Below are positions 1 through 17,596 of a stretch of 64,000 nt of DNA, piece after piece. The notes below the pieces were generated by a model. It saw only the letters and a list, made by a program, of their open reading frames with translations. It was not told where the DNA came from and did no database searches. How positions within the stretch are numbered: the stretch's first letter is position 1; each line of letters begins with the position of its first letter. Source of the stretch: Candidatus Poribacteria bacterium (GTDB taxonomy: Bacteria > Poribacteria > WGA-4E > PCPOR2b); assembly GCA_022822785.1 (NCBI GenBank), contig JAJEAL010000076.1:30506-94505 (forward strand), written 5' to 3'. The translations under genes were made by a program, and so were the position numbers.

Positions 1-477
1 TAAGTATTCCACCTGGATTGTGGCGTTCGATTCTGATTGACTTCTCACAAATAGTGAAACCTAATACCTGATCGCGGATTGGGGTTTCATTCTATCTATA
101 TAGCATTCTATATAACTATAATAATGTTGTCAAGGCTTTTTTTTTATTATTATTTCGCCAAAAGGGAGAGTGATAATAGGTATGCCAATCTTTGTCAAAT
201 GCCGATGAACATTGACTCTGGCATCGGATGACGTTCTAATAAATTGGGATTTACATCCGTTCGGTCCAAATGATAAATAGTTGAATGCCGCTGTGGGTAA
301 GAAACCGGACGCCAAACCGACAAGTATTAAACGCGATAGCCGAAACCCGCGCCACCATTGAGTTTGTAACAGGGGGCGCTTCTGAATTAGTTCCCTAGAA
401 TGCTATATGTAACTATCTGAATCGAGTTTTCTCATTAAATAACGCTAGCAAACTTGGGTCAGTAAAGGTATTTAGGG

Positions 478-3357
478 ATGACACAGTTGACTACATCAGG
501 ACCTAACCCTCAACAGCAGGCAGCTATCCGCATAACAGAAGGGCCGCTCCTCATTATCGCTGGTCCCGGATCTGGCAAGACCTTTACGCTCGTCGAAAGA
601 ATTTATCACCTAATATCTAAAAAGAGGATACCGCCGGAACGCCTATTTGTTTCAACCTTTACGGAGAAAGCAGCTGCCGAACTCATCACCCGAATCTCAT
701 CGCGATTGGACGCCGACAACATCTCCGTCAACCTCAACGAGATGTACGTTGGTACATTCCATTCGATCTGTCTGCGTTTTCTCGAAGAGAACCGTGACTT
801 TACCCGGTTGAAGCGGAACTTCACTCTACTGGATCAGTTTGACCAGCAATATTTCATCTATCAGCGGCTCTCCGAGTACCAAGAGATTGAGGGTAACGAA
901 CATATCCTTGGCAAATCAGGGACCTTCTCGTGGAGAGGGGCAGAGGGTCTCATGAAGTGGGTGAATACAGTGAGCGAGGAGGCACTCGACCCGAAAACTC
1001 TGCTGAATGCCCCCGAGCCTGAAATTCAGGCGTTAGGGCGCTGCTATCAGAAGTATCAGGAACACCTTGACGCGGAAAACTGTCTCGACTTCTCTACCAT
1101 TCAGGTTGAGGCGTTACGTCTGCTTGGCGACCATCCCCACATACTCGACGAAATCCGCGCTAAAGTCCAATACCTAATGGTCGATGAGTATCAGGACACT
1201 AACACTATCCAAGAGCGCCTCCTCTTCAAACTCGCAGAACCGGACTACAATCTCTGTGTCGTCGGCGACGATGATCAAGGGCTGTACCGATTCCGCGGCG
1301 CGACGATACGAAACATCCTCGAGTTCCCACAGCAGTTTCCAGATGGTCTCTGCCAGCAGGTCAAGCTCACCACGAATTACCGATCCCACCCAGATATCAT
1401 CAAGTTCTACAACCACTGGATGGATACTCTCGACTGGACAGCGGAGGGTCAGACCTTCCGGTATCAAAAGACAATCGTTCCAAACGATGAAGTGGATTTT
1501 ACAGATATACCCACCGTGCTGAAAGTCTCCGGTGATCCTGAGTCCGAGAATTGGCACGAGGAGGTCCTCGCCTTTCTTTGTGACCTTAAGGACAGTGGCG
1601 CATTGACGGATTGGAATCAGGTTGCTTTCCTGTTTTGGTCGGTGCGGAATAAGAAGGTTATTGCATTGGCAGAAGCGTTGGAGGCAGGCGGCATTCCTGT
1701 CTACTCGCCGCGATCGAATCTGTTCTTTGACCGGACAGAAATCCGCCTGATGATTGGTGCTTTGATCTTCCTTTTCCCACAGTTTGAAAAGGCAAGAGAG
1801 TGGAAAGAGGGGGCCAGCCTAGAAATATGGAAGTATTACGATCACAACTGTTTCGCGGAGTTTGCGACGGAGCTCCGCAAGCCAGAGAATAAGCCACTAC
1901 TAGAGTGGTGCCGCAGGAAAGCAAAAACACATCTCAACCTAAGTGAGCCGCCAGACTACGCCTTTTCCGGGCTGTTCTATGACCTGCTCCAGTTCCCCCT
2001 TTTCAGTCAGCACCTCGGCGAACCAACCCAGGGCGACGCGATAGACAGCCGCCCTGCCCGAAACCTAGCAATCTTCTCACAACTGCTCAATAAGTACGAG
2101 TATCTCCACGGCGTCAATCTCCTGATACCCAGGAATCTCAATAGAGACCTCCAGCGACTGTTCAACCAGTTCTTCCGTTTCCTCAAGGACGGCGGCATTG
2201 ACGAATACGAGGATGCGTCCGAATATGCACCAAGCGGTTGCGTCTCGTTTATGACAATCCACCAATCGAAGGGCTTAGAGTTCCCTGTCGTAATCGTCGG
2301 CTCACTACACGCCGTGCCCCGCAAACAGTACACCGAGGTCGACGAACTGCTTCAGCATAAATACTACAGCAAAGCACCGTTTGAGCCGTTGGACCAGACC
2401 AAATACTACGACTTCTGGCGATTGTATTACACCGCCTTTTCCAGAGCCCAAAATCTCCTCCTCCTCACCTGTCAGGAAAAGACACAAAGACAGCGGGTCC
2501 CCTCCGCCTATTTTCAGCCTATCTATGATCAGGTATGTCCTTGGCGGGCTGACTCGTTTCAAACTGAAGATCTCATCCTCGAAATTATCAAAGACGTGGA
2601 TCTAAAGAATGAGTACTCATTCACATCGCATATCACCGTCTTTGAGGATTGTGCCAGACAGTACAAATTCTACCGAGACCTCGGCTTCGCTCCGATCCGC
2701 CGAAACCCTATCCTTTTCGGCACGGTCGTGCATCAGACCATTGAGGACATCCACAAAGCGGTCCTGCGCGGCGAGGAGCAGATAGTCACCGACGAGCAGA
2801 TCTCGGACTGGTTTCATGCTAACTACACCCACCTTTCACGCCAAGAGCGCCTCTATCTCAGCTCTGGAGGACAAAAAGCAGCCCTAGATCATATCCTGAA
2901 CTATGCCCACCACGAGCGAGGAACGTGGGATCGCCTCAGCGAAACGGAGGTCGAAGTGTCCCTTGTCAAGGACGCATACCTCCTCAAAGGTCACGTCGAT
3001 CTAATTCGCGGGAAAGATAACACAGTGGAGATTGTCGATTTCAAGTCGGAAAAGAAGCCCGACCTCGTCAGCGAACGCGAGAAGGTGGACCGTTATCGCC
3101 GTCAAATCGAGGTTTATGCACATATCATCGAAGGACGCACAGGTCAAAAAATCAGTAAGATGCACCTCTACTACACCGGCGAGGACGACAGCAATCCGTA
3201 TATCACCTTTGACAAGGATGCGCGCTCAATTGATCAGACGATGGAAGCGTTTGATGGAATTGTCGATCGTATCGAAAACAGAGACTTTGAAATTTCCTCC
3301 CGCCCTGACAGACTCTGTAGAAACTGTGATATGAAGGCATACTGTGACGCGATGTAG
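478..3357 (+). CDS. UvrD/PcrA-like SF1 DNA helicase fused to a C-terminal Cas4/AddB-type Fe-S PD-(D/E)xK nuclease
   Basis: The N-terminal half carries the UvrD helicase motifs in order: Walker A GPGSGKTFTL, motif II DEYQDTN, motif III VVGDDDQGLYRFRGA, motif IV TTNYRSHPDII and motif V/VI IHQSKGLEFPVVIV. The C-terminal domain has the RecB/Cas4 nuclease motifs GHVDLI, EIVDFKS and QIEVY, plus four cysteines in the Cas4/AddB Fe-S arrangement (one upstream Cys, then CRNCDMKAYC = Cx2Cx5C at the extreme C-terminus). Confidence 0.8.
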   Translation: MTQLTTSGPNPQQQAAIRITEGPLLIIAGPGSGKTFTLVERIYHLISKKRIPPERLFVSTFTEKAAAELITRISSRLDADNISVNLNEMYVGTFHSICLRFLEENRDFTRLKRNFTLLDQFDQQYFIYQRLSEYQEIEGNEHILGKSGTFSWRGAEGLMKWVNTVSEEALDPKTLLNAPEPEIQALGRCYQKYQEHLDAENCLDFSTIQVEALRLLGDHPHILDEIRAKVQYLMVDEYQDTNTIQERLLFKLAEPDYNLCVVGDDDQGLYRFRGATIRNILEFPQQFPDGLCQQVKLTTNYRSHPDIIKFYNHWMDTLDWTAEGQTFRYQKTIVPNDEVDFTDIPTVLKVSGDPESENWHEEVLAFLCDLKDSGALTDWNQVAFLFWSVRNKKVIALAEALEAGGIPVYSPRSNLFFDRTEIRLMIGALIFLFPQFEKAREWKEGASLEIWKYYDHNCFAEFATELRKPENKPLLEWCRRKAKTHLNLSEPPDYAFSGLFYDLLQFPLFSQHLGEPTQGDAIDSRPARNLAIFSQLLNKYEYLHGVNLLIPRNLNRDLQRLFNQFFRFLKDGGIDEYEDASEYAPSGCVSFMTIHQSKGLEFPVVIVGSLHAVPRKQYTEVDELLQHKYYSKAPFEPLDQTKYYDFWRLYYTAFSRAQNLLLLTCQEKTQRQRVPSAYFQPIYDQVCPWRADSFQTEDLILEIIKDVDLKNEYSFTSHITVFEDCARQYKFYRDLGFAPIRRNPILFGTVVHQTIEDIHKAVLRGEEQIVTDEQISDWFHANYTHLSRQERLYLSSGGQKAALDHILNYAHHERGTWDRLSETEVEVSLVKDAYLLKGHVDLIRGKDNTVEIVDFKSEKKPDLVSEREKVDRYRRQIEVYAHIIEGRTGQKISKMHLYYTGEDDSNPYITFDKDARSIDQTMEAFDGIVDRIENRDFEISSRPDRLCRNCDMKAYCDAM

Positions 3358-3405
3358 CTAAACTGGACGACTATCAAGTAGTCCTATAAAATAAGGAGAT
3401 ACCTC

Positions 3406-5184
3406 TTGGAAACTCAAACCCAACTCAATATTTCTGAACCCATTGATTCTGTTGAAGCCTATGAATTTGAGCCAATTCAAGGCTCCCCCATGCTCAACTG
3501 GAAGGGGAAACGCCCCTTCCAATCCACGCAATACTATCCCGTGCAACTGAAAGAGACGTATGGCGAAGAGATAAACGGTTGGCGGAACAAGATCTATTGG
3601 GGCGATAACTTGCAGGTTATGAGTCACCTGCTCAAGACCTACCGCGGGAAAATTACCTTGATTTATATCGATCCTCCGTTTGACTCGAAGGCAGAGTACA
3701 AAAAGCGGATAGAACTGAGGGGTAAAAAAGTAGAGAATGATCGCACTGCTTTTGAGGAGAAACAGTACACGGACATCTGGACGAATGATAAATACTTGCA
3801 GTTCATGTATGAACGACTGATTTTGATGCGAGAGTTGTTGGCGGAGGAGGGATCAATCTATCTTCATTGTGACCCTACTGCCGGTCACTACATCAAGGTT
3901 ATGATGGATGAGATCTTTGGAAATGAAAACTTTAGGAATGAGATTGTGTGGTGTTATACAGGGCCAAGTAGCCCAAACATGAAAAATTTCCCACGCAAGC
4001 ATGATACAATCTTTCGTTATTCAAAGTCTCAAGAGTGCTGTTGGAATCCACAGCGAATACCTTACAAGGATCCCAACCAAACACTACGTCGAGCGATGGA
4101 CGGCGGCGCAGGTATAGGTGCAGAAGAAGTAGAAAAATACCGAGCACAGGGTAAGCTCATAGAAGATTACTGGACCGATATTGCACTTGCTGTCCGCAGC
4201 CCTAAAGAACGGATTGATTACCCTACCCAAAAACCTGAAGCCCTGCTTGAACGCATCATCCAAGCGTCATCCAATCCTGGCGATCTTGTCATCGACTGCT
4301 TCATGGGTAGTGGGACGACACAAGCTGTCGCCATGAAACTTGGTCGCCGCTTTATCGGGGCAGATATCAACCTCGGTGCAGTGGAAATCACCACAAAACG
4401 CCTTCTCAACCAAGCTGCAGATATTCAGAAAAGCACGGCTCAAGGGGAAATCGACACGCGCCAAGAAGGCACAGAAGATATACAAACCTACTATACGGGT
4501 TTTGATGTCTACAACGTCAACTACTACGATGTATTCCGCAATCCCGTTGAGGCGAAAGACCTGCTGATTGAAGCGTTAGAGATTCAGCCGCTGTCTGATG
4601 GCGGAATCTACGACGGCGAAAAGGACGGCCGCATGGTAAAAATTATGCAGATCAACCGCATTGCGACCCGCGCTGATCTGAACGAGCTAATCACTGGCTT
4701 TGATTACCGTGCGTTTGAGAGGCGTCAGGAGGAACACCCAACGGTTCCGGTCGAAAAGCTGTTGCTGGTCTGTATGGGGCATGAACCCGACCTCGCCGCT
4801 GCCCTGCAAAACGAAGTGCTCCACAAACTTGACATTGAAGTGATGGATATCCTGCGCGACAAATCCAAGTTAGAGTTTAAGCGGGAATCCAAAGCGAAAA
4901 TTGTCCGTCGCAATAGACACATAATCATTGAGCAGTTCTACCCCATGAACCTCCTCCAGAAATTGAGCCTGATGGAAGAGAACGTCGAAGATTGGCGCGA
5001 GCTGGTCGAATCTGTGAAGATCGACTTCAACTACGACGGTGCCGTATTAAACCCATCGGAGGTAGACATACCCGAAGAAGGCGAATTGGTCAAAGGTTCT
5101 TACCCCATCCCCGACGACGCCGGCACGATCCGCGTTAAAATCACCGACCTACTCTCAGAATCTCTAGAAGAAGCGGTAGAATAA
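3406..5184 (+). CDS. mod: Type III restriction-modification methyltransferase (Mod subunit, beta-class N6-adenine/N4-cytosine MTase)
   Basis: Motif IV (IYIDPPFDSK) precedes motif I (VIDCFMGSGTTQAVAMKLGRRFIGADIN), separated by a long variable target-recognition region. The gene is adjacent to a Res-like helicase-endonuclease. It has a probable TTG start 7 nt after an AAGGAG ribosome-binding site. Confidence 0.8.
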   Translation: METQTQLNISEPIDSVEAYEFEPIQGSPMLNWKGKRPFQSTQYYPVQLKETYGEEINGWRNKIYWGDNLQVMSHLLKTYRGKITLIYIDPPFDSKAEYKKRIELRGKKVENDRTAFEEKQYTDIWTNDKYLQFMYERLILMRELLAEEGSIYLHCDPTAGHYIKVMMDEIFGNENFRNEIVWCYTGPSSPNMKNFPRKHDTIFRYSKSQECCWNPQRIPYKDPNQTLRRAMDGGAGIGAEEVEKYRAQGKLIEDYWTDIALAVRSPKERIDYPTQKPEALLERIIQASSNPGDLVIDCFMGSGTTQAVAMKLGRRFIGADINLGAVEITTKRLLNQAADIQKSTAQGEIDTRQEGTEDIQTYYTGFDVYNVNYYDVFRNPVEAKDLLIEALEIQPLSDGGIYDGEKDGRMVKIMQINRIATRADLNELITGFDYRAFERRQEEHPTVPVEKLLLVCMGHEPDLAAALQNEVLHKLDIEVMDILRDKSKLEFKRESKAKIVRRNRHIIIEQFYPMNLLQKLSLMEENVEDWRELVESVKIDFNYDGAVLNPSEVDIPEEGELVKGSYPIPDDAGTIRVKITDLLSESLEEAVE

Positions 5185-5203
5185 CGACTTATAGGAGAAA
5201 AAC

Positions 5204-7813
5204 ATGGCACGAAACAGACGAACACAGATTAACATTGATTTTGCCTTCTTCACCTACCTACGCATCTTTTATAATGAGAATCGCGGACGCATCCGCACTC
5301 ACTTTCGGGATCTTGCCAAAAAATTCCTCGATTTCAACGACCCGGAGTCGGGCGCGTTTTTGCGGCAACCGCAATTTGAGGCGTTAGAGATGTATATCTT
5401 CATCAAGGAATATCTTGATAATCGGCACGTCCATCAGATTTTCGCAGACTGGCACGCAAGACAAAACGGCTTTGAGGCGAGGTCAAACCTCGGCGTAGAG
5501 CAAACTGAATTGTTCGGTGAGCTAGATGCAGAGCAGTATGAAGCCGTATTTGAATATATCCGACGGTTCGAGCGTACCTATCCGAATTATATCTTCGCAC
5601 TCCCAATGGGAACAGGTAAGACGATCCTTATGGCGGGCTGTATCTTCTACGAGTTTCTGCTCGCTAACAAATTCCCGAAAGATCCCAAGTACTGTCACAA
5701 CGCCCTCGTCTTCGCACCAGATAGAACTGTCCTTCAGTCCCTAAAGGAGATTCAGACCTTCGACATGGGGCTTGTTGTGCCTCCCGAATATGTCAACTTC
5801 CTATCAACCCATCTCAAATTTCACTTCCTCGAAGAAGCGGGCACTTCACTATCGACTATCGATCAATCGCGGTTTAACGTAATCATCTCTAATACTCAGA
5901 AGATTATCCTCAAGCGTCAACACGCAGAGCGAAGCCCGGCTGATACCCTGTTCAAGAGCGGTGCGCCGACCTATCAGCCCGGTAGCCCCTATGATGAGGC
6001 GTCCGACCTCTACGACTTTGATACTCCCGAAGATGAGAAAGAGCTGACCGTTAACCAACGATTTCAGAAGCTGACGCGACTCGAACAACTCGGTATCTTT
6101 GTCGATGAGGCGCATCACGCCTTCGGCACTAAATTGGCGAGGGACATGGGGATCCAGACATCAAAGACCAGTCTTCGACTCACCATCGATGAACTGGCAA
6201 CGAATCTGGAACGGGCAGGAACCCGTGTCTCTGCGTGCTACAATTTCACTGGAACACCTTACGTTGGCCAACAGGTCTTGCCAGAAGTGGTCTACGGCTA
6301 TGGTCTAAAGGAAGCGATCGACAAAGGGTTCCTCAAGCAAGTCACACTTAACAGCTACGAGAACACACAGAACTCAGAGTTTGTGCGGCTAGTAGTCAAC
6401 GATTTCTGGGAGAACCATAGGGAACAACGCCACGAGGGCATGTTGCCGAAACTCGCCCTCTTTGCTGCAACAATTGATGAGTTACAGAATGAGCTCCGTC
6501 CTGCGGTCGAATCTGCACTGAGTGATCTCGGTGTAGATCGCTCTCGCATCCTCGTCAACGTTGGCGATCCCAAACTAACCTCCAATGATGACCTACGTGA
6601 ATTCATCAACCTTGATACATCCGCATCCGAAAAACAGTTTATCCTGCTGGTCAATAAAGGGAAGGAAGGGTGGAACTGCCGATCTCTGTTCGGTGTCGCA
6701 CTCTATCGCAAGCCGAAATCGAAAATCTTTGTCCTACAGGCAAGTATGCGATGCTTGCGTCAAATCGGTGAAGGTCAACAGACCGGCAACGTCTACCTTT
6801 CCGAAGAAAACACACAAATCCTTGATGACGAGTTACAACAGAACTTCCGCCTAACTATTGACGAGATTGAGGACATCGGAAAAGAAAAGGTCAATTATGA
6901 GGTGCGCGTCAAAAAGCCGCCGGTAAAAGTAACACTGCAACGCATCCGAAAATTGCATACACTGATAGAAAAGCAACCGCAGAATGGAATGCGTTTAGAA
7001 CTCGATCAAGCGGACACAGAGAAATATCGCTTGGTACACCGGCAAAGGGCAGGACTCTCAGCATCAAACGAGGAGCAAGTCGAAGACCTGACCGAATTCA
7101 GGGAGCGACGCGATTTCAGTCAGTTGACACTCTGCGCGGAGATTGCCCGTTACCTCAACCGTTCACCTCTGGAAATAGAGAACATCCTGACGAAAACACA
7201 GGAGGGTATGGCCGAGATTCTTCGGAGCGTCAACGAGTTTAACGAACTGCTCTATGACTGGATTATTCCACGTCTCTTCAATGCGCTGTATGATCTGAAC
7301 GAATTTGAACACCACGAACCAGAGGAGATCGAACTGGTCAAAGCGCCAGAAGACGGCTACTACAAAGTCCGATCGAATCCGGAGCTAGTAGTTAAAGACG
7401 ACGAACCGGACGACCCAACAGTAAGAAATCATGGACACAAGAGTTTTCATCTTGATACCTACGCTTTTGATTCCCAGCCCGAACGCTCCTTATTCTGGTC
7501 CCTATTAAGAGAAGGAAAAGTAAACAAGGTCTATTTCACGGGAATGCTGACGCATGGTCAATCGGACTTCTACATCCAATACATTGACCCAGAATCCCAC
7601 GCTGTCAGACGCTATTACCCTGACTTCCTGATGCAGAAAGACGATAATTCGTGGGTAATCGTGGAAGTGAAGGGGGATAATATGATTGACGATAAAATAG
7701 TACAGGCAAAGGCATCTGCTACACAGCAGAGAGCGAGTGCAAGTGATATGTCTTACGAGATCATTAAGGGCAGCGACGCAGCGGCGGGACAGTATCAACG
7801 GTTATTAGAGTAA
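5204..7813 (+). CDS. res: Type III restriction enzyme Res subunit (SF2 helicase with C-terminal PD-(D/E)xK endonuclease)
   Basis: Walker A FALPMGTGKTILMAG and DEAH box IFVDEAHHAFG identify the helicase. A C-terminal YYPDFLMQKDDNSWVIVEVKGD endonuclease motif follows. The gene is 20 nt downstream of Mod on the same strand. Confidence 0.8.
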   Translation: MARNRRTQINIDFAFFTYLRIFYNENRGRIRTHFRDLAKKFLDFNDPESGAFLRQPQFEALEMYIFIKEYLDNRHVHQIFADWHARQNGFEARSNLGVEQTELFGELDAEQYEAVFEYIRRFERTYPNYIFALPMGTGKTILMAGCIFYEFLLANKFPKDPKYCHNALVFAPDRTVLQSLKEIQTFDMGLVVPPEYVNFLSTHLKFHFLEEAGTSLSTIDQSRFNVIISNTQKIILKRQHAERSPADTLFKSGAPTYQPGSPYDEASDLYDFDTPEDEKELTVNQRFQKLTRLEQLGIFVDEAHHAFGTKLARDMGIQTSKTSLRLTIDELATNLERAGTRVSACYNFTGTPYVGQQVLPEVVYGYGLKEAIDKGFLKQVTLNSYENTQNSEFVRLVVNDFWENHREQRHEGMLPKLALFAATIDELQNELRPAVESALSDLGVDRSRILVNVGDPKLTSNDDLREFINLDTSASEKQFILLVNKGKEGWNCRSLFGVALYRKPKSKIFVLQASMRCLRQIGEGQQTGNVYLSEENTQILDDELQQNFRLTIDEIEDIGKEKVNYEVRVKKPPVKVTLQRIRKLHTLIEKQPQNGMRLELDQADTEKYRLVHRQRAGLSASNEEQVEDLTEFRERRDFSQLTLCAEIARYLNRSPLEIENILTKTQEGMAEILRSVNEFNELLYDWIIPRLFNALYDLNEFEHHEPEEIELVKAPEDGYYKVRSNPELVVKDDEPDDPTVRNHGHKSFHLDTYAFDSQPERSLFWSLLREGKVNKVYFTGMLTHGQSDFYIQYIDPESHAVRRYYPDFLMQKDDNSWVIVEVKGDNMIDDKIVQAKASATQQRASASDMSYEIIKGSDAAAGQYQRLLE

Positions 7814-7938
7814 CTCAATTAACGATTAGGAGTTATGCACTTCAACCTCAATCGGGCGTCGTGAATCGTGTTGTGCGGTGATAAATCGCCGAACTACAAA
7901 ACTTTGAACGTTCGACGGCGTAAGTCCTAATAATATCA

Positions 7939-8673
7939 TCACCGTTGAAGGTCAACGCTACTGGAGAGAATGTGTTCCGTCATCGCCTGCTGCGCCTGAT
8001 TCGCGTCTCCCTCTCGGAGAGCGTCAAGGATTTTTCGGTGCTCTTGCAAGGATAGTTTCGCCCGCGTCTCTTCACCTGTTAGCGATTCAGCAAGACTTCC
8101 TTTAATCCACTCTTGCAGATACCCCCGTATCATGCTCAGAAGGCTGTAGAGTATCGAATTTTGCGTCGCGCGCGCGATGATCAGATGAAACTGTAAATCA
8201 AATTCCAAGTATTTCTCAGGCTGCCCGATCGATGCCTCCATTCCTTGCAAGGTCTCTTCGATTGTCTCAATATTCTTTGCTGTGACCCGCTGTGCAGCCA
8301 GAAACGCCGTTTGGGATTCTAGCATGAGCCGGGTTTCGATGAGGTCTTGAACCCTTTTACGGTCAAGCAGCAGCCCCCACTGTAACGTTTTCTCCAGATA
8401 CCGCTTGTTACTGTTAGACACAAAGGTGCCATCTCCAACCCGTCCATCTATAATTCCCATGACGGCAAGAGAGCGCAACGCCTCTCTCAAGGAACTCCGT
8501 CCCACCCCTAGCCGCTTACACAATTCCCGCTCAGAAGGCAACCGGTCTCCGGGTTTCAGCACATCCCGGGAGATGAGGTCAACCACCTGCTCCACAATCC
8601 CATCACTCAGGGAGGTGCGAGTATCAGGCTTTCTCTCCTTCATCGTCAATTTTTCTTGTTCTTGCGCTTTCAT
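7939..8673 (-). CDS. GntR-family transcriptional regulator with a FadR-like C-terminal domain
   Basis: N-terminal winged helix-turn-helix VEQVVDLISRDVLKPGDRLPSERELCKRLGVGRSSLREALRSL, followed by a helical FCD-like C-terminal domain. The start is moved to the ATG at 8673 (MKAQEQ...), because the upstream 39 codons of the ORF-track frame run into the repeat element. Confidence 0.75.
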   Translation of the reverse strand: MKAQEQEKLTMKERKPDTRTSLSDGIVEQVVDLISRDVLKPGDRLPSERELCKRLGVGRSSLREALRSLAVMGIIDGRVGDGTFVSNSNKRYLEKTLQWGLLLDRKRVQDLIETRLMLESQTAFLAAQRVTAKNIETIEETLQGMEASIGQPEKYLEFDLQFHLIIARATQNSILYSLLSMIRGYLQEWIKGSLAESLTGEETRAKLSLQEHRKILDALREGDANQAQQAMTEHILSSSVDLQR

Positions 8674-8793
8674 AACATAACCTAAGTTGCTAGTGATTGG
8701 AAATCCATCAGAACCTGTAGGTCGAGATTCACATCTCGACACAAAACCGTCGATTTTGATGAAGATTAATTTATAGTGAATTGTAAACATAAC

Positions 8794-8942
8794 TAGACAC
8801 TTTCGCTCTTCATGTTTGGTAGGCGCTGTTTCCGACTGCGCCTATACGGTGCGGTTTCTAACCGCACCTACCGGGGTAATAGCCCGGATTTTTCCAGCCC
8901 CGGTGGTCGAGGTTTCCTAACCTCGCCGATTGGCAGTGTCTA
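8794..8942. mobile_element. MITE-like intergenic repeat element, copy A (inverted relative to copy B)
   Basis: Ends TAGACACT (8794) and AGTGTCTA (8935) are reverse complements. Internal blocks ggcgcagtYggaaacagcgcctaccaaacatg and ggaaaaatccgggctatYaccccggtaggtgcgg are shared with copies at 11341-11579 and 61802-61905. A flanking AGAATTAAT motif is also shared. Confidence 0.65.
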
Positions 8943-9213
8943 ATTAATTCTAAAATCTACCATAATTGTATCAAATGAGGCCGATGATGAGGGGCTTGAG
9001 GCTCCGCATACATTCGTATTATGATACCGAAAAATCGACAAATTTCAGGCATTCAAATCCTTGATGAAAATTTCACTTTACAATTTCTTAATTTTGAGTT
9101 AAACTTATGATACAAAGGTCAGACCATTAATTATTATGCGAATAAATCGCTCTGTTGTCAAGCAAAATTACAGGTGAGAACCAAGAATAATAGTTCCTAA
9201 CGAGGAGATAGCC

Positions 9214-9849
9214 ATGGGTCAAACCGTCGATATTGGCAAACGTATTGAATTGGTCCCGATGGACCCTCATTTCCACGACATAACGATCGCGCTATACCAA
9301 CAGGGGCCGGATGAGAGCCCCCTGTTCTTAGTGCATACCTACAGCCAGATGGAAGGGGCTCAAGAGCGTATTCAGTTTGCGATCGAAGCGATGACGCGCA
9401 TGGGAAACCTGATTGTGACTGCGAACGGGATGCTCCAGTTCCCCTGTGGATCAGGACATCAACTCGCTTGCAGACGGACTTTTCTAGAGTCATGTAAGCT
9501 CTCCCCGAACGATTCAGCGGAACCTCGTCCCTTACAGATTCTAGACAGAAAGTCAGGCATGACTATCACGGTCGATAGTCTTGGACAAGGGATTTACCAA
9601 GTGAAAGCTGATGGCGAGGGCAGACGTGCCGACAGACGTGTCTCCGCAATTGCTGGCGGTTTACTGAAATTAGGAGAGATGGAAGAGGTGGACGGAACGC
9701 TCGATAAGGTCGCGTTTCCGTGTGGCCATTCCCACGATGCGTTGGTCGGTTTGTTGCTTGTTCGTGCCCCGAATGTACGCGCCATCGTACGGGAGCAAGA
9801 GATGGCAGCCTCGCGTGGCGTCCTCGCAGCACCTAGTCAACAGAATTAG
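9214..9849 (+). CDS. Hypothetical protein with an internal FPCG(S/H)xH duplication; first gene of the corrinoid methyltransferase cluster
   Basis: ORF with a GAGGAGA ribosome-binding site, ending 10 nt before the MtaA-like gene. Two repeated FPCGSGH / FPCGHSH motifs are present. I recognised no known family. Confidence 0.5.
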   Translation: MGQTVDIGKRIELVPMDPHFHDITIALYQQGPDESPLFLVHTYSQMEGAQERIQFAIEAMTRMGNLIVTANGMLQFPCGSGHQLACRRTFLESCKLSPNDSAEPRPLQILDRKSGMTITVDSLGQGIYQVKADGEGRRADRRVSAIAGGLLKLGEMEEVDGTLDKVAFPCGHSHDALVGLLLVRAPNVRAIVREQEMAASRGVLAAPSQQN

Positions 9850-9858
9850 GAGGAAAAT

Positions 9859-10914
9859 ATGGGAACCCAAAAACAAACCGTCGGACCGATGACCGGTAGA
9901 GAACGGGTTTTGGCAGCGTTGAAAAGAGAACCTGTGGACCGAACGCCGATTTGCAATCCAACGTCCGTCGCCACAGTAGAATTGATGGACTTGGTAGATG
10001 CACCATTCCCGGAAGCCAATCGTCAACCTGAGTTGATGGCACGGTTAGCCGCCACCGGGTATACTGAGTTAGGTTTCGATACCATTATGCCTGTTTTCAC
10101 GATTATTCAAGAATCCTCTGCACTCGGATGCAAGATCCAATGGGAGCAGAAGGACAATTGGCCCACGGTTAGAATGCGCGAGCCAATCTGGGAGGATGTC
10201 GATGAAATCAAGATTCCATCAGATTTTCTGACCCATCCGGATACCAAATGCGTACTCGATGCAATTAAAATCCTTAAGAAGGAATACGGGGAGGACGTCG
10301 CTATTATTGGAAAAACGATGGGACCGTGGTCTCAGGCCTATCACTGTTTCGGCGTGGAGCCTTTTTTGCTGCTATCCTTGGATGATCCGGGCACAACGAA
10401 ACTCGCGCTGGATAGGTTGAAGGAAGCCACGATAGAATTTGGCGTCGCACAGATTGAAGCGGGAGCAGATGCACTGACCCTACCCGACCACGCAACGGGC
10501 GATCTGGTCAGTGGTGAATACTATGAGCGTTACCTCCGCGACCTGCACATTGAGTTCGTCGAGCGGATTCCTATCCCGCTGATTCTTCATATTTGTGGGC
10601 GGACAGTGGATAGAATGGAATATATCGCTCAGACAGGAATGGCAGCCTTCCACTACGATTCCAAGAACGAACCCGGTGAATCTATGGAAGTGGTTAAAGA
10701 GCGAATCGCTCTAGTGGGCAACATTAATAACCCTGAGACGCTCTTCTCGAAGGGTCCCGAAGACGTTCGCGGGGAAGTCTACAAGAATCTGGAATCCGGT
10801 GTACATCTTATTGGTCCAGAGTGTGCGATTCCGTTGCAGACCGCTATTGAAAATCTCAAAGAAATTCCCAAAGCGGTGCAGGACTGGCACAAGGAACATA
10901 CGGAATTGAATTAG
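9859..10914 (+). CDS. Uroporphyrinogen decarboxylase (UroD)/MtaA-CmuA family methyltransferase (methylcobamide- or substrate:corrinoid methyltransferase)
   Basis: N-terminal MTGRERVLAALKREPVDRTPICNPTSVATVELM is typical of the MtaA/MtbA/UroD-like family. It has an AGGAGG ribosome-binding site and a length of about 350 aa. Confidence 0.75.
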   Translation: MGTQKQTVGPMTGRERVLAALKREPVDRTPICNPTSVATVELMDLVDAPFPEANRQPELMARLAATGYTELGFDTIMPVFTIIQESSALGCKIQWEQKDNWPTVRMREPIWEDVDEIKIPSDFLTHPDTKCVLDAIKILKKEYGEDVAIIGKTMGPWSQAYHCFGVEPFLLLSLDDPGTTKLALDRLKEATIEFGVAQIEAGADALTLPDHATGDLVSGEYYERYLRDLHIEFVERIPIPLILHICGRTVDRMEYIAQTGMAAFHYDSKNEPGESMEVVKERIALVGNINNPETLFSKGPEDVRGEVYKNLESGVHLIGPECAIPLQTAIENLKEIPKAVQDWHKEHTELN

Positions 10915-10963
10915 GATTAGTACAGAGAAATGTTGCTATAGGGAAAATCTTAATAGAACGTCT

Positions 10964-11323
10964 GTGTTGACAAGGACAAAAGATATGGTTCAGCTAACGA
11001 TGCAAGTTCCCGATGAATTGGCAACACAGATCCAGCCGATTGGCTCTTGGCTTCCAACCGTTATCGAGTTGAGTCTCATCGGATTTAAGACCTTGGCTGC
11101 CGCTACCACAGCCGAGACAATTCAGTTTTTATCAAAAAATCCTGACCCGCAGGAGGTGCTTAACTATCATGTTTCTGAAAGGGCGCAGGAGAGGCTTCAA
11201 CGCTTACTCACACTAAATCAAGCTGGATTGTTATCGGAGATGGAGCAACTTGAACTCGATGAACTGCAACAAATTGAGCATATTATCATCATGCTCAAAG
11301 CACAAGTTACATCACAGCTATAG
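10964..11323 (+). CDS. Hypothetical small protein
   Basis: An ORF only, lying between the MtaA-like gene and the repeat element. No motifs recognised. Confidence 0.3.
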   Translation: MLTRTKDMVQLTMQVPDELATQIQPIGSWLPTVIELSLIGFKTLAAATTAETIQFLSKNPDPQEVLNYHVSERAQERLQRLLTLNQAGLLSEMEQLELDELQQIEHIIIMLKAQVTSQL

Positions 11324-11340
11324 TAAAGTTTAGAATTAAT

Positions 11341-11579
11341 TGGACACTCTGTACCGGGGATGGGAAAATCCGGGCTATCACCCCGGTAGGTGCGGTTTCA
11401 TGAAGATTAATTTATTAATTGGGTAATTTGCTATTGACACCAGCGCGGTTGCAAGCCGCGCCTACCGGGTCTTGGGGAAATATAGAGTTACCCGATTATT
11501 TCCTGAAACTTCATCTAACCGCACCCCATCGGCGCAGTTGGAAACAGCGCCTACCAAACATGGGGAGCGAAAGTGTCTA
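11341..11579. mobile_element. MITE-like intergenic repeat element, copy B (longest copy)
   Basis: Left end AATTAATTGGACACT and right end GAGCGAAAGTGTCTA form terminal inverted repeats. Contains ggcgcagttggaaacagcgcctaccaaacatggggagcgaaagtgtcta and ggaaaatccgggctatcaccccggtaggtgcgg, shared with copies A and D. Confidence 0.65.
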
Positions 11580-11621
11580 TCTGTTTTTAGAATCCACTAT
11601 AAGTTCAAAGAGAAAAAAACT

Positions 11622-12392
11622 ATGGCAGAAATTACCGACATTCAAAATGAAATTATTGTAGACGAGATTGAGGAGTTCATTGAGCGCCCTGACGAACGGG
11701 AGCGCGCTATTAATACATTTGCCCAAACCACCCCTGAGATGCAGGACATCGCCGCAGCGCTCATTGACGGAGACAACGATGGTGTGGATGAGATGACCAA
11801 AGCCGCTTTGGACGCGGGCACCGAAGCACTGGAAATCATGGATGACGGCCTAATCGCAGGAATGGGGGTCGTCGGGATTAAGTTCCGAGAGAACTTTATC
11901 TTCGTCCCGGAAGTCCTCGCTTGCGCCCGAGCAATGAAAGCCGGCATGGCGTATATTGAACCGATTCTATCCGCCTCCGGCATCGATCCCATCGGGACTG
12001 TAATCATGGGAACGGTGAAAGGCGATCTCCACGACATCGGCAAGAACCTGTGCATCATGATGCTGCGGGGCGCAGGATTCGTTGTGCACGACTTGGGTGT
12101 GGACACCTCGGACGATGAGTTCATCGAAGCAGTGGAGGAGCACGAGGCACCCATACTCGGAATGTCAGCGTTGCTGACCACCACGATGCCAAACATGGGC
12201 AAGACAATTGAAGCCTTCATCGATGAAGATCTCCGGGAAGATGTGAAGATTATGGTGGGCGGTGCCCCGGTGACCCAAGAGTTCGCCGATGATATGGGTG
12301 CGGATGGCTACGGCAAAGACGCCCTTGAATGCGTGGCACTAGCAAAGAAGTTCCTCGAAGAAGAAGAGGACGAAGACTGGGCAGCAGATTAG
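11622..12392 (+). CDS. Corrinoid (cobalamin-binding) protein, MtaC/MtbC/MetH-B12-domain-like
   Basis: B12-binding Rossmann domain with the DxHxxG signature DLHDIGKNLCIMMLRGAGF and GMSALLTTTMPNM, preceded by a helical cap domain. The start is set at the ATG at 11622 (MAEITD), because the longer ORF-track frames begin inside the repeat. Confidence 0.8.
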   Translation: MAEITDIQNEIIVDEIEEFIERPDERERAINTFAQTTPEMQDIAAALIDGDNDGVDEMTKAALDAGTEALEIMDDGLIAGMGVVGIKFRENFIFVPEVLACARAMKAGMAYIEPILSASGIDPIGTVIMGTVKGDLHDIGKNLCIMMLRGAGFVVHDLGVDTSDDEFIEAVEEHEAPILGMSALLTTTMPNMGKTIEAFIDEDLREDVKIMVGGAPVTQEFADDMGADGYGKDALECVALAKKFLEEEEDEDWAAD

Positions 12393-12468
12393 AGGCTTCT
12401 CTCAAGCCGATTGGGTGTTAAGCTGGCTCGGTACAAAAAATTAAGGCAAACCTATTGACAACTTAAAC

Positions 12469-14424
12469 ATGAACAAAGAAGAATACCAGAAACGTTTAGA
12501 CAAAATAACAGAGCTGTTTTCAAGCATGGTAACTCATGCTGACCAACAATCGATGCATCGGTGCCCTTATAAAAACCGCTTCGATCAATGCACCGCTAAG
12601 TTCGGGTGTCGAAACCAGCGTAGGCCGCCTAGCGAAGGTTTGGTTGATAGGGAACGCAGATCTGCGTTCCCTACTAGCGTCCGCGGCACTCCAGAGGAAG
12701 GATTACTTTTGTGTGGTGGGGACGATAAGATTGACTATCGGACCGCGTGGGAAACTGAAGTTGCTAACGGCGCTTTCCTCGAAAATGAAGAAAACTACGG
12801 ATCGGGAACGGTAACACACGACAGCAAAAAGCGGCCTCTCGCAGCCGGAAAGACCATTTTCGATTACGCTGATGAACTCGCAGTTCAGGTGCCGACCTCC
12901 TGCTTCCGGACCGGGCAATGCCACGAATGTATTGTGGAAATTAAAGAGGGAATGGAGGCGCTGCGAACTCGGAACGAAGCAGAATCGTTTTTGCGAGAGA
13001 ACTATCGGCTCGCCTGCCAAGCAGTGGTTAAAGCCCCCGATATCGACATAGTGTTTTCGCCAATACGGCGCACCCCCAAGATCCTTACCCGTACGCACGA
13101 AAAACCCCTTCAAATTGACCCGTTAGTGACGCGCCGTGAAGACACGGTTTACTACGACGATGAGGCAGTTGACAGATACCGCGGTCATATCTACGGCTTG
13201 GCAATTGACCTCGGCACCACAACAGTCGTCATCGATTTAGTCGATCTGGAAACCGGTGAAAGTGTCCATGTCAGCTCCTTTGAAAACCCACAACGGTTCG
13301 GCGGCAGTGATATCATGCATCGCATTTCGTATGATGGTGAGTTCGGTGGCGAATTGCGCTGGTCAGTCATCAACGCGCTCAACCACGAAATTCGGGAAAT
13401 GGCTCAACAGTTAGGGTTCGTGCGTCAAGAAATTTACGAGATTGTTGTCGTGGGCAACTCGACCATGCGAGACATTTTCTTTAAGCTGGATGTACAAAGT
13501 ATCGGTCAAAAACCCTATCAATCGGTAATCGAGGGTCAATATCGTGCCGGTGAGCGCGAAACCACTTCCCTTATTGAAAAGACACGGCGACTTGGGATTC
13601 GAGCTAACCCCAAAGCGTGGGTGTATGGGCTGCCATTAATCGGCAGCCATGTTGGTGCCGACGTTGCAGCGGACCTAGTAGCACTCGACATGGCATCTCA
13701 AAAAGAGGTCGTCATGCTAGTAGATGTCGGCACGAATACTGAAGTGGTGGTTGGACATCCGGGGCGGCTGATTGCTGCGTCCTGCCCAGCAGGACCCGCT
13801 TTTGAGGGCGGCGGCATTAAGTACGGGATGCCCGGCTACGACGAAGCGATTGAGTCCGTCCGTTGGGTAGATGGTCAGATTGAATATAGTACGATCGGTG
13901 GCGTTGAACCTAAAGGCATCTGTGGCTCCGGTTTAATCGACCTATTGGCGGAGCTTCGTCGGAACGGACAGATGACTGAAATGGGGGTCTTCGGGAACAG
14001 AAAGACACGTGAGATACCCATTATCCCGGAATACGGCATCACTTTCTCCCGCGAAGATGCTAGCAATCTAGCGCAAGCTAAGGCTGCTAACTACTGCGGT
14101 CAATTCATCGTTATGCGAAGGTTCGGGATCAATCCGGCGGATATAAGTCGGCTCTATCTAGCGGGTGGTTTCGCCAATTATGTGGATGTGCGTAACGCAA
14201 TTGATATCGGGTTTTTGGCACCGGTAGATGAAAGCCGTATCTCCAAGATTGGCAACGCTGCGGTACAGGGCGCAAAGGAAGTACTCCTCTCACGAAAGAA
14301 ACGTGAGGATATTGAGCGTTTGGTCAAAGGGATAGAACATGTAGAATTGGAGACCACCTCCGATTTCTTTGAGGTGTTCGTCGAAGGGTGCCAATTTAAG
14401 CCGATGCCGACAGAGTTTGTGTGA
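12469..14424 (+). CDS. RamA/RACo-like reductive activator of corrinoid proteins (2Fe-2S ferredoxin plus ASKHA ATPase, DUF4445-like)
   Basis: N-terminal plant-type ferredoxin Cys pattern (SCFRTGQCHECIV...LACQ), followed by a large ASKHA-fold region (DLGTTTVV, VDVGTNTEVVVG). The length is about 650 aa. It is adjacent to a corrinoid protein. Confidence 0.7.
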   Translation: MNKEEYQKRLDKITELFSSMVTHADQQSMHRCPYKNRFDQCTAKFGCRNQRRPPSEGLVDRERRSAFPTSVRGTPEEGLLLCGGDDKIDYRTAWETEVANGAFLENEENYGSGTVTHDSKKRPLAAGKTIFDYADELAVQVPTSCFRTGQCHECIVEIKEGMEALRTRNEAESFLRENYRLACQAVVKAPDIDIVFSPIRRTPKILTRTHEKPLQIDPLVTRREDTVYYDDEAVDRYRGHIYGLAIDLGTTTVVIDLVDLETGESVHVSSFENPQRFGGSDIMHRISYDGEFGGELRWSVINALNHEIREMAQQLGFVRQEIYEIVVVGNSTMRDIFFKLDVQSIGQKPYQSVIEGQYRAGERETTSLIEKTRRLGIRANPKAWVYGLPLIGSHVGADVAADLVALDMASQKEVVMLVDVGTNTEVVVGHPGRLIAASCPAGPAFEGGGIKYGMPGYDEAIESVRWVDGQIEYSTIGGVEPKGICGSGLIDLLAELRRNGQMTEMGVFGNRKTREIPIIPEYGITFSREDASNLAQAKAANYCGQFIVMRRFGINPADISRLYLAGGFANYVDVRNAIDIGFLAPVDESRISKIGNAAVQGAKEVLLSRKKREDIERLVKGIEHVELETTSDFFEVFVEGCQFKPMPTEFV

Positions 14425-16137: not shown

Positions 16138-16209
16138 TGACGCGGACGGGGGCCGCTTTTAATCGGTGCAACCGGTGCCAACCGTGTGCAGCACTACGAG
16201 GAGTTGACG

Positions 16210-17244: not shown

Positions 17245-17247
17245 ACC

Positions 17248-17535: not shown

Positions 17536-17596
17536 AAGCTTGCCTGTACCTGCTAAAAAAGTAATACATAGATTAGAAGCGTAGAAAGGATTCCTT

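What the first reader, a model, noticed from the sequence alone, without database searches (positions are those of the whole stretch)
478..7813. Candidate three-gene defence operon: helicase-nuclease fusion upstream of a Type III R-M pair
Three co-oriented genes are spaced 48 nt and 19 nt apart. The first is a UvrD-like helicase with a C-terminal Cas4/AddB-type nuclease. The other two are recognisable Type III Mod and Res subunits. The operon follows an AT-rich, gene-free leader (1-477), and a GntR regulator sits convergently downstream. A stand-alone Type III system needs only Mod and Res, so an extra SF1 helicase-nuclease in the same transcription unit suggests one of three things: an accessory factor, an anti-anti-restriction or DNA-end-processing partner, or a separate defence gene stacked in an island. 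I cannot match the whole architecture to a named system. GajB of Gabija, Nhi and AddAB-like enzymes each share only some of its parts.
Basis: partly seen in the sequence, partly recalled or inferred. Interest (0 to 1): 0.7.

Follow-up and report, generated by a model that had tools for sequence, protein, structure and literature searches.

The report
Helicase-nuclease plus Type III-like restriction cassette
This is a real three-gene DNA-restriction cassette (a helicase-nuclease, a DNA methylase and a restriction motor-nuclease) that moves as one unit between very different bacteria, plasmids and a phage; the gene combination was already noted by comparative genomics in 2017, but no experimental test turned up in the papers searched.

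Summary
Three co-oriented genes (478-3357, 3406-5184, 5204-7813) are spaced 48 and 19 nt apart behind an AT-rich non-coding leader. Gene 1 is a UvrD/PcrA-type SF1 helicase fused to a Cas4-type Fe-S nuclease. Gene 2 is a beta-class Type III-like Mod with a hypervariable target-recognition region. Gene 3 is an SF2 motor with a C-terminal PD..ExK (TnsA-like) nuclease. It has Type III Res topology but belongs to a separate, narrow family that canonical Res models barely detect.

The linkage is not chance. Of 80 genome loci carrying a gene 1 homologue, 70 have the same triad in the same order, 7 are cut by contig ends, and 3 are informative exceptions. Genes 1 and 3 share one phylogeny (Mantel r 0.975). 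The triad occurs across several phyla, on plasmids, in a phage and in an E. coli integrative island.

It is not new as an architecture: Hudaiberdiev et al. 2017 described UvrD-Cas4 fusions whose commonest neighbours are Type III Mod and Res. I found no experimental work. My best reading is an integral helicase-nuclease that processes DNA after Mod/Res cutting; that step is inferred. Verdict: new member of a known, uncharacterised kind; moderate interest.

The parts
1..477 (+). Non-coding, AT-rich leader upstream of gene 1; presumably holds the operon promoter, which was not identified
   Evidence: 39.6% GC against 49.8% for the window. No credible ORF in the 1.1-kb gap of the parent contig. 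Window 1-439 is 93.6% identical to non-coding DNA in the syntenic relative L107, so it is not a decayed gene. No + strand sigma-70-like match in 1-477, and hits over 1-9300 are not above shuffles.
478..3357 (+). Gene 1: SF1 UvrD/PcrA-like helicase fused to a C-terminal Cas4-type PD-(D/E)XK nuclease (959 aa)
   Evidence: Pfam UvrD-helicase 5e-76, UvrD_C, PDDEXK_1 6e-22. PDB sequence matches: PcrA 1e-53, UvrD, AdnB, AddA, RecB. 77-sequence alignment.
559..582 (+). Gene 1 Walker A (AGPGSGKT, K34)
   Evidence: At least 97% conserved in 77 homologues.
1183..1197 (+). Gene 1 helicase motif II (DEYQD, residues 236-240)
   Evidence: At least 97% conserved.
2626..3348 (+). Gene 1 nuclease domain (residues 717-957): E824, D841, D854-x-K856, QxxxY (876-880), and Cys725 plus C947-x2-C950-x5-C956 (four-cysteine Fe-S type set)
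   Evidence: PDDEXK_1 covers residues 717-957. This region alone hits PADLOC Cas4 models at 8e-14. All listed residues at least 97% conserved.
3406..5184 (+). Gene 2: beta-class N6-adenine DNA methyltransferase, Type III Mod-like (592 aa)
   Evidence: N6_N4_Mtase 2.5e-51; PADLOC MTase_III 3e-64 over residues 57-420; EcoP15I Mod 4zcf_A 5.6e-20.
3670..3681 (+). Mod catalytic motif IV (DPPF, residues 89-92), which precedes motif I
   Evidence: Conserved in the 66-sequence alignment.
3901..4200 (+). Mod hypervariable region, the putative target-recognition domain (residues ~166-265)
   Evidence: Mean pairwise identity 0.24-0.39 against 0.55-0.84 in the flanks, with indel hotspots after residues 229, 237 and 245.
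4300..4314 (+). Mod SAM-binding motif I (FMGSG, residues 299-303)
   Evidence: Conserved.
5204..7813 (+). Gene 3: Res-like SF2 ATPase with a C-terminal TnsA-like PD..ExK nuclease (869 aa)
   Evidence: ResIII 4.5e-8 and Tn7_TnsA-like_N 7.3e-6. AF2 model with pLDDT 84.3. Fold matches to HsdR, RadD, SauUSI and EcoP15I Res.
5606..5623 (+). Gene 3 Walker A (MGTGKT, residues 135-140)
   Evidence: M135, G136, G138, K139 and T140 invariant in a 45-sequence alignment reaching down to 24% identity.
6104..6115 (+). Gene 3 motif II (DEAH, residues 301-304)
   Evidence: E302 invariant; D301, A303 and H304 at least 90% conserved.
7619..7672 (+). Gene 3 nuclease core (P806-D807 ... E821-x-K823)
   Evidence: P806, D807, F808 and E821 invariant; K823 at least 90% conserved. 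Marginal match to positions 781-822 of the PADLOC REase_III model.

Best explanation
The three genes form one horizontally mobile restriction-modification cassette. Mod (gene 2) methylates an asymmetric target, chosen by its variable TRD, to mark self DNA. Mod together with the Res-like SF2 ATPase-nuclease (gene 3) recognises and cuts unmodified incoming DNA in an ATP-dependent, Type III-like way. The UvrD-Cas4 helicase-nuclease (gene 1) is an integral third component and was not added by chance. It most likely loads at the nick or break made by Res, then unwinds and degrades the invader. In effect it would be a built-in, RecBCD/AddAB-like end processor that turns a single cut into irreversible destruction. 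Shown here: gene content, intact catalytic motifs, conserved order and spacing, co-inheritance of genes 1 and 3, TRD diversification, and carriage on mobile elements. Inferred only: complex formation, the order of events, and the end-processing role. My confidence that gene 1 is an integral part of a mobile R-M-type cassette is about 0.85. My confidence in the specific post-cleavage degradation role is about 0.4. The single figure of 0.55 is for the statement as a whole.
For: Linkage: 70 of 80 genome loci found with gene 1 carry Mod then Res downstream on the same strand. Six have Mod and then the contig ends, and one contig ends straight after gene 1. Median gaps are 54 and 29 nt. Reciprocal test: gene 3 homologues down to 46% identity on Enterococcus and Vibrio plasmids sit in the same triad. 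Co-inheritance: pairwise-identity matrices of genes 1 and 3 correlate at r 0.975 over 62 loci (maximum of 1000 permutations 0.24), and r 0.978 without Poribacteria. Mod correlates at only about 0.39-0.41, and its variation is concentrated in the TRD. Two cassettes in one MAG differ mainly in the TRD (0.40 against 0.72-0.78), as expected for working R-M specificities. All helicase, methylase and nuclease motifs are intact and conserved. Mobility and defence context: the triad occurs in Poribacteria, Chloroflexota, Cyanobacteria, Alpha-, Beta- and Gammaproteobacteria, Bacillota and Desulfobacterota at 58-63% identity. It is on plasmids, in a Caudoviricetes genome, and in an integrase/IS island in E. 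coli. Neighbours include WYL regulators, TmtA-like, HerA and Mokosh/Dpd-like genes and integrases. Modularity of gene 1: L008 pairs it with a different, canonical ResIII protein. The sister clade of gene 3 (28-33% identity) works as Res then Mod without gene 1, yet keeps the same PD..ExK residues. That fits gene 1 acting on a generic product such as a DNA end. Its closest solved relatives by sequence are PcrA and UvrD; the end-processing helicase-nuclease subunits AdnB, AddA and RecB follow at weaker scores. Independent prior inference of a defence role: PMC5704561.
Against: No experiment exists for any member in the searchable literature. Co-phylogeny proves co-transfer, not physical or functional interaction. 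Gene 3 keeps its own nuclease, and the sister clade manages without gene 1, so gene 1 may be dispensable for restriction itself. Solo gene 1 copies exist (L009; L011 after an IS21 insertion). In this Poribacteria lineage the cassette shows no compositional anomaly and sits at a stable chromosomal site between metabolic genes, so it is not in a recognisable island here. No promoter or terminator was identified.
Confidence: 0.55

Rival explanations
1. Gene 1 is required for the cleavage step itself. It would unwind DNA at or near the Mod-bound site so that the TnsA-like nuclease of gene 3, the Cas4-type nuclease of gene 1, or both can cut. All three proteins would then form one obligate enzyme. 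[quoted passage not shown]
For: Very tight co-inheritance of genes 1 and 3 (r 0.975). Gene 1 comes first in the operon with short gaps. Gene 3 is far from canonical Res proteins, so it may have lost autonomous function. Suggestion.
Against: Gene 3 retains invariant ATPase and PD..ExK residues. The same residues are kept in the sister clade that lacks gene 1. Gene 1 also pairs with an unrelated canonical Res in L008 and, according to PMC5704561, with Dcm/Vsr modules. That argues against a bespoke protein-specific mechanism.
Confidence: 0.2
2. Gene 1 protects the host, not attacks the invader. It would process breaks made by accidental self-restriction into substrates for recombinational repair (an AddAB-like repair role), lowering the autoimmune cost of carrying the R-M.
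For: Sequence similarity to repair helicase-nucleases AddA, AdnB and RecB. The cassette travels to hosts of many phyla whose own end-processing machinery differs.
Against: There is no AddB/AdnA-like partner, and Chi recognition could not be assessed with these tools. The nuclease is Cas4-type. Neighbourhoods are enriched in other defence genes, and repair genes were not seen among them. Nothing here distinguishes this directly from the main explanation.
Confidence: 0.12
3. Gene 1 is an independent single-gene defence or housekeeping helicase that merely sits next to an ordinary two-gene R-M (stacking in an island, or a PcrA/AddA paralogue).
For: Solo copies occur (L009). PMC5704561 reports stand-alone uvrD-cas4 genes. 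Single-protein helicase-nuclease defences exist (Nhi, Hna; named).
Against: 70 of the 73 genome loci with enough downstream sequence to judge keep the triad across phyla, plasmids and a phage, with operon-like spacing. Genes 1 and 3 share one tree. NCBIfam scores are far below the cut-offs for PcrA (247 against 911), UvrD, AddA (171 against 708) and RecB (104 against 696). The cross-phylum distribution at about 60% identity is incompatible with a vertically inherited housekeeping gene.
Confidence: 0.05

Closest known systems
UvrD-Cas4-like fusion genes next to Type III Mod/Res, described computationally by Hudaiberdiev et al. 2017, BMC Evol Biol 17:232 (PMC5704561, section on pfam12705, Fig. 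6)
   Same: Same fusion (UvrD-like SF1 helicase plus pfam12705 Cas4-like nuclease). Same commonest neighbourhood (Mod and Res). Occasional WYL/HTH regulators. Inferred defence role.
   Different: Nothing essential differs; the window is another member. Added here: gene 1/gene 3 co-phylogeny, the distinctness of the Res family and its gene-1-less sister clade, TRD diversification, plasmid, phage and E. coli carriage, and clade-specific extra genes.
Canonical Type III R-M (EcoP15I, EcoP1I; structure 4ZCF)
   Same: Beta-class Mod with a central TRD (EcoP15I Mod 5.6e-20). Order mod then res. Res with an N-terminal SF2 ATPase and a C-terminal PD..ExK nuclease. EcoP15I Res gives the longest Foldseek alignment among the 50 best hits (736 columns, E 1e-9).
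AddAB / RecBCD / AdnAB end-processing helicase-nucleases
   Same: UvrD-type SF1 motor fused to a C-terminal RecB-family nuclease. Four-Cys Fe-S type nuclease as in AddB and Cas4. Sequence hits to AdnB, AddA and RecB.
   Different: Single polypeptide with no partner subunit gene. Scores are far below the equivalog cut-offs. Encoded in an R-M operon on mobile elements, not as a housekeeping locus.
Gabija GajB
   Same: UvrD-like SF1 helicase in a defence context; it is the best PADLOC hit to the helicase half (4.9e-58).
   Different: No GajA (OLD/TOPRIM) gene next to gene 1 or inside the operon in the window or in the loci whose genes were inspected. The shown GajB models are 382-725 positions long, and the hits cover only the helicase part of gene 1. 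Similarity to solved GajB is weak (2.5e-8).
Cas4 (CRISPR adaptation nuclease)
   Same: The nuclease domain matches Cas4 models (8e-14; TIGR00372 at 45 bits) with the same Cys pattern.
   Different: Below the Cas4 equivalog cut-off (45 against 65 bits). Fused to a helicase. No cas gene among the called genes within 10 kb either side of gene 1.

Membership tests
UvrD-Cas4 / Type III Mod-Res neighbourhood (Hudaiberdiev 2017) | Single protein with a UvrD-like SF1 helicase fused to a pfam12705 (Cas4-like) nuclease | tested here: met
   PF00580 5e-76 plus PF12705 6e-22 in one 959-aa ORF. Cas4 models 8e-14 on the C-terminal 259 aa.
UvrD-Cas4 / Type III Mod-Res neighbourhood (Hudaiberdiev 2017) | Adjacent Mod and Res genes, conserved across genomes | tested here: met
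   70 of 80 loci are complete triads; 7 are contig-truncated.
UvrD-Cas4 / Type III Mod-Res neighbourhood (Hudaiberdiev 2017) | Some loci carry WYL/HTH regulators and other defence genes | tested here: met
   WYL genes next to the gene 1 start in 5 related loci (abutting or overlapping in 4, 18 nt away in L082). TmtA-, HerA- and Mokosh-like neighbours. Not present in the window itself.
Type III restriction-modification | Mod is a beta-class (motif IV before motif I) N6-adenine MTase with a central variable TRD | tested here: met
   DPPF at 89-92, FMGSG at 299-303, variable block at 166-265. MTase_III 3e-64 and EcoP15I Mod 5.6e-20.
Type III restriction-modification | Res has an N-terminal SF2 ATPase and a C-terminal PD-(D/E)XK nuclease, encoded directly after mod | tested here: met
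   GTGKT, DEAH, QxxR and PD..ExK conserved. 19-nt gap after mod.
Type III restriction-modification | Res is homologous to characterised Res proteins (EcoP15I/EcoP1I family) | tested here: inconclusive
Type III restriction-modification | A two-gene system is sufficient (Mod and Res only) | tested here: not met
   A third gene is conserved in the triad clade. Sufficiency itself needs an experiment.
Type III restriction-modification | ATP-dependent cleavage needing two inversely oriented unmethylated sites; hemimethylation of an asymmetric site | not testable with these tools
   Needs a methylome and biochemistry.
AddAB / RecBCD / AdnAB | Reaches the equivalog score and has a partner subunit gene (AddB, RecC/RecD, AdnA) | tested here: not met
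   AddA 171 against 708 bits; RecB 104 against 696. No partner gene in the window or related loci.
Housekeeping PcrA / UvrD / Rep | Reaches the equivalog score, with vertical, lineage-wide inheritance | tested here: not met
   PcrA 247 against 911; UvrD 212 against 1144. Patchy cross-phylum distribution at about 60% identity, and carriage on plasmids and a phage.
Gabija | GajB helicase encoded next to a GajA OLD-family ATPase-TOPRIM nuclease | tested here: not met
   No such gene next to gene 1 or inside the operon in the window or in the loci whose genes were inspected.
BPTD_3080 family restriction endonuclease (NCBIfam NF046055) | Score at or above the curated cut-off | tested here: not met
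   65 bits against a cut-off of 800.

The most novel reading that the evidence does not exclude
The triad is a distinct class of R-M enzyme and more than a Type III system with a helper. In this reading, a divergent Res-like motor (TnsA-like nuclease) and Mod only license the target, while the co-evolving UvrD-Cas4 subunit is the processive executioner. That would give RecBCD-independent shredding of invader DNA, resistant to phage anti-RecBCD proteins. Some lineages would have extended the same chassis with protease or Tiamat-like effectors.
Probability: 0.25. Interest if true: 0.65.

Novelty: new member of a known kind. Interest (0 to 1): 0.4.

Why it matters
Type III enzymes cut DNA once, and the host's RecBCD or AddAB is generally assumed to finish the job. 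A widespread cassette that carries its own helicase-nuclease would show how mobile R-M systems become independent of host repair machinery and of phage anti-RecBCD factors. This family has representatives in several phyla, on Enterococcus poxtA plasmids and in a gut phage. PADLOC's REase_III model barely detects its Res (21.6 bits). The family is annotated inconsistently, so it may be under-counted in defence censuses. A native E. coli copy makes it directly testable.

Tried and rejected
(1) Housekeeping PcrA/AddA paralogue. The many 75-92% identical Poribacteria homologues first suggested a core gene. I rejected this after the cross-phylum triad census and the sub-threshold equivalog scores.

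(2) Leader as a decayed gene. I tested it against the ~150-aa N-terminal extension of other Poribacteria homologues and against the 426-aa upstream gene of L107. There is no remnant, and the leader aligns to non-coding DNA.

(3) GntR as the operon regulator. It is not conserved in any of the 80 genome loci, although the syntenic relative L107 shares it.

(4) Sequence route to a solved Res homologue. A single sequence and a 45-sequence profile both found nothing.

(5) Fold route to prove Type III Res membership. The result was only a generic restriction-type SF2 motor, with HsdR above EcoP15I Res.

(6) Promoter and terminator scans did not rise above shuffled controls.

(7) Rfam and tRNA scans of the window found nothing.

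(8) Literature searches for a name or an experiment ('UvrD-Cas4', BPTD_3080, the Type III/UvrD/helicase-nuclease/Cas4-like term sets, TnsA-N plus methyltransferase) returned only the 2017 paper. The Synechococcus cas4/uvrD paper concerns separate genes.

(9) An empty-site search through the exact GntR protein found only a 1.4-kb contig.

Full report
**1. Observation**

The window holds three + strand ORFs at 478-3357 (959 aa), 3406-5184 (592 aa, TTG start) and 5204-7813 (869 aa). They are separated by 48 and 19 nt, and Shine-Dalgarno sequences precede genes 2 and 3.
- Gene 1 carries UvrD-helicase (5e-76), UvrD_C and PDDEXK_1 (6e-22) domains.
- Gene 2 carries N6_N4_Mtase (2.5e-51).
- Gene 3 carries ResIII (4.5e-8) and a C-terminal Tn7_TnsA-like_N domain (7.3e-6).

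A GntR/FCD gene lies convergently at 7939-8790. The leader 1-477 has 39.6% GC against 49.8% for the window. In the parent contig (ENA ERZ23491076 scaffold_451, 92 kb) the ORF-free gap is 1.1 kb.

One correction applies to gene 3. It scores only 21.6 bits against PADLOC's REase_III model. It also has no sequence match to any solved structure, EcoP15I Res included, either alone or as a 45-sequence profile.

**2. Is the linkage real?**

The named homologues of gene 1 come from Candidatus Poribacteria, and more than 120 clusters share 75-92% identity with it. That first suggested a lineage core gene.

A scan of one genome per species changed this view. It returned 80 loci: Poribacteria at 74-81% identity, and then Chloroflexota, Cyanobacteria, Alpha-, Beta- and Gammaproteobacteria, Bacillota, Desulfobacterota and Syntrophomonadaceae, all at 58-63% identity over the full length.

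A tblastn search with the window's Mod and Res then gave this census:
- 70 of 80 loci have Mod then Res directly downstream on the same strand, with median gaps of 54 and 29 nt.
- Six loci have Mod followed by a contig end.
- One contig ends just after gene 1.
- Three loci are informative exceptions.

The GntR gene is not conserved in any of the 80 genome loci; only the syntenic relative L107 shares it.

The exceptions are themselves instructive:
- L008 pairs gene 1 with a divergent Mod and a canonical ResIII protein (8e-33).
- L009 has a solo gene 1 followed by a histidine kinase.
- L011 has an IS21 element where Mod and Res should be.

**3. Co-inheritance**

Over the 62 loci that have all three proteins at full length, the pairwise-identity matrices of genes 1 and 3 correlate at r 0.975. 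The maximum over 1000 label permutations is 0.24, and r is 0.978 when Poribacteria are excluded. Mod correlates with either partner at only 0.39-0.41.

Mod's excess variation sits in residues ~166-265, between motif IV (DPPF) and motif I (FMGSG). Mean pairwise identity there is 0.24-0.39 with indel hotspots, against 0.55-0.84 elsewhere. Two cassettes in a single Poribacteria MAG (L005 and L007) differ mainly in this block (0.40 against 0.72-0.78). This is the pattern expected of an R-M module whose specificity diversifies by changes in the TRD.

**4. Reciprocal test and family boundaries**

Gene 3 homologues on plasmids keep the triad down to 46% identity. Examples are the Enterococcus faecium poxtA plasmid pDY28 and Vibrio pVAS19 at 51%.

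An exhaustive HMMER pass over 1.84 billion representatives found only 1,144 proteins at E <= 1e-3. The family is therefore narrow and separate from mainstream Res proteins.

Its distant full-length members (28-33% identity) are encoded as Res then Mod, with no helicase-nuclease in the operon. Even so, the ATPase and PD..ExK residues stay invariant across the whole alignment. Gene 1 therefore defines one sub-clade of this Res family, and the family as a whole does not need it.

**5. Anatomy**

- Gene 1 has all the SF1 motifs: Walker A AGPGSGKT, DEYQD, VGDDDQ..YRFRGA, TIHQSKGLEF and YTAFSRA. Its RecB/Cas4-type nuclease has E824, D841, D854-x-K856 and QxxxY, plus Cys725 and C947-x2-C950-x5-C956. 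All are at least 97% conserved in 77 homologues. The C-terminal 259 aa alone match Cas4 models at 8e-14.
- The nearest solved relatives of gene 1 by sequence are PcrA, UvrD, AdnB, AddA and RecB. NCBIfam scores are far below every equivalog cut-off.
- In short, gene 3 has a restriction-type SF2 motor and the Type III placement of the nuclease at the C-terminus. Specific membership in the EcoP15I Res family is not established.

**6. Context**

In related loci the cassette lies beside:
- integrases and recombinases;
- WYL regulators next to the gene 1 start (5 loci);
- a divergent TmtA (Tiamat)-like gene (28 loci, 26 of them inside one gene 1 clade of 42; Mantel r 0.71);
- HerA pairs (8 loci);
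- a Mokosh/DpdJ-like helicase (4 loci).

The cassette also occurs in 13 IMG/VR contigs and in Acutalibacteraceae phage NatCom_11578. In E. coli it sits in an integrase/IS island next to yecA-tyrP and is detectable in 3 of 5,426 genomes at the DNA level.

In the window's own lineage the picture is different. The cassette sits at a stable site between epimerase and GntR genes, shared with a relative whose gene 1 is 92% identical at the protein level (L107). Its GC content matches the background.

**7. Prior knowledge**

Hudaiberdiev et al. 2017 (PMC5704561) reported that UvrD-Cas4-like fusions are monophyletic. [quoted passage not shown] They proposed an ancillary role in defence. Searches of the held library found no later paper naming or testing the system. 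That library misses most subscription-journal papers, so this absence is not proof.

**8. Mechanism**

What is shown: a co-inherited, mobile, catalytically intact triad with a diversifying Mod TRD.

What is inferred:
- Mod marks self DNA.
- Mod plus the Res-like motor-nuclease cut unmodified DNA.
- The UvrD-Cas4 protein engages the resulting end or nick and degrades the invader.

The modularity of gene 1 favours action on a generic DNA product over a bespoke protein partner. It pairs with a different Res in L008, and the sister clade does without it.

The rivals are obligate participation in the cleavage step, host-protective repair of self-inflicted breaks, and independent stacking. The first two are not excluded, and the census and co-phylogeny make stacking unlikely.

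**9. Verdict**

This is a genuine three-gene Type III-like R-M cassette with an integral helicase-nuclease. It is a new member of a kind already described computationally and still uncharacterised experimentally in the literature I could search. Interest is moderate.

Noticed in passing
L011, L023, L026-L030, L033, L035, L037-L040, L043-L046, L048-L051, L053-L055, L059, L062, L063, L069 (e.g. L011:5551-8898 -): A ~1100-aa TmtA (Tiamat)-like protein (Sacsin ATPase plus NOV_C; PADLOC TmtA 3e-66) is encoded divergently upstream of gene 1 in 28 loci, mostly 150-350 nt away. 26 of them fall in one gene 1 clade of 42, and the Mantel r with gene 1 is 0.71. It may be a clade-specific fourth component or a co-travelling system. 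It is absent from the window.
   Followed up: partly
L011:9063-9992, L012:9057-9989, L013:804-1688, L063:9102-9989, L082:9105-9980: A co-oriented WYL-domain regulator gene abuts or overlaps the start of gene 1 in four loci and ends 18 nt before it in L082. It may be a BrxR/CapW-type regulator of the cassette. There is none in the window.
   Followed up: partly
L010:12923-16978, L057:12889-13899, L071:11466-13661 and 15618-18023, L017:3365-4375: Predicted peptidase genes are inserted inside the operon between gene 1 and Mod: Peptidase_M14 (1351 aa), Trypsin_2 (336 aa) and CHAT (731 aa). L071 also has an HNH protein between Mod and Res, and L017 has a 336-aa ORF with no Pfam match. These may be added effector modules.
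   Followed up: partly
P0046, P0051, P0060, P0091; L004:9401-10000; L008:9137-10000: Many Poribacteria homologues of gene 1 carry a conserved ~150-aa N-terminal domain (no Pfam match) followed by a Q/P/A-rich repeat linker, giving 1140-1270 aa. The window copy lacks it, and no remnant is present upstream.
   Followed up: partly
L107:8678-9958: The closest syntenic relative (gene 1 92% identical at the protein level) has an extra co-oriented 426-aa gene (HSDR_N_2 weak, plus FGE-sulfatase, with a predicted membrane segment) ending 43 nt before gene 1. It lies on a ~1.9-kb segment absent from the window and is not found in any other fetched locus.
   Followed up: partly
L003:5515-7295 and L004:12924-14691: A second Mod copy, broken into two ORFs, lies in tandem before the intact Mod in two Poribacteria loci. 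This could be a duplication or a specificity-swapping remnant.
   Followed up: no
L005 and L007 (same MAG, contigs 21 and 8): One Poribacteria MAG carries two complete triads (gene 1 80% and 74% identical to the window) whose Mods differ mainly in the TRD.
   Followed up: partly
Plasmid hits H11-H26 (e.g. L083, NZ_MW207671 pDY28-poxtA): The triad is on Enterococcus plasmids, including a poxtA plasmid, flanked by IS1216. About 11 of the 15 Enterococcus records show only partial matches to the Res-like gene; the cause of the truncation was not examined.
   Followed up: no
L099 (PV036426.1 298-8451): A human-gut Caudoviricetes genome (Acutalibacteraceae phage NatCom_11578) carries helicase-nuclease, a 246-aa ORF, Mod and a Res-like gene at one genome end.
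   Followed up: partly
L014:11059-14457 and 7 other loci: A HerA-like ATPase (~675 aa) plus a 451-aa partner with no family match recurs beside the cassette in 8 loci: just downstream of Res or just upstream of gene 1, and 1.6 kb from Res in L034. It looks like another defence pair.
   Followed up: no
L102:7425-10854: A distant Res then Mod relative without gene 1 is followed by a Vsr-Dcm fusion and a HATPase_c_3 (MORC-like) gene. This echoes the second UvrD-Cas4 context reported in PMC5704561.
   Followed up: no
window 9214-14424: Downstream of the GntR gene lies a corrinoid-dependent methyltransferase cluster: a 211-aa ORF, a URO-D-like methyltransferase (7.7e-66), a B12-binding protein and a RACo-type activase. 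It is conserved in L107, so GntR is more plausibly linked to this cluster than to the cassette.
   Followed up: no
window 1-64000: There is no tRNA gene and no Rfam family at gathering threshold anywhere in the 64-kb window.
   Followed up: yes
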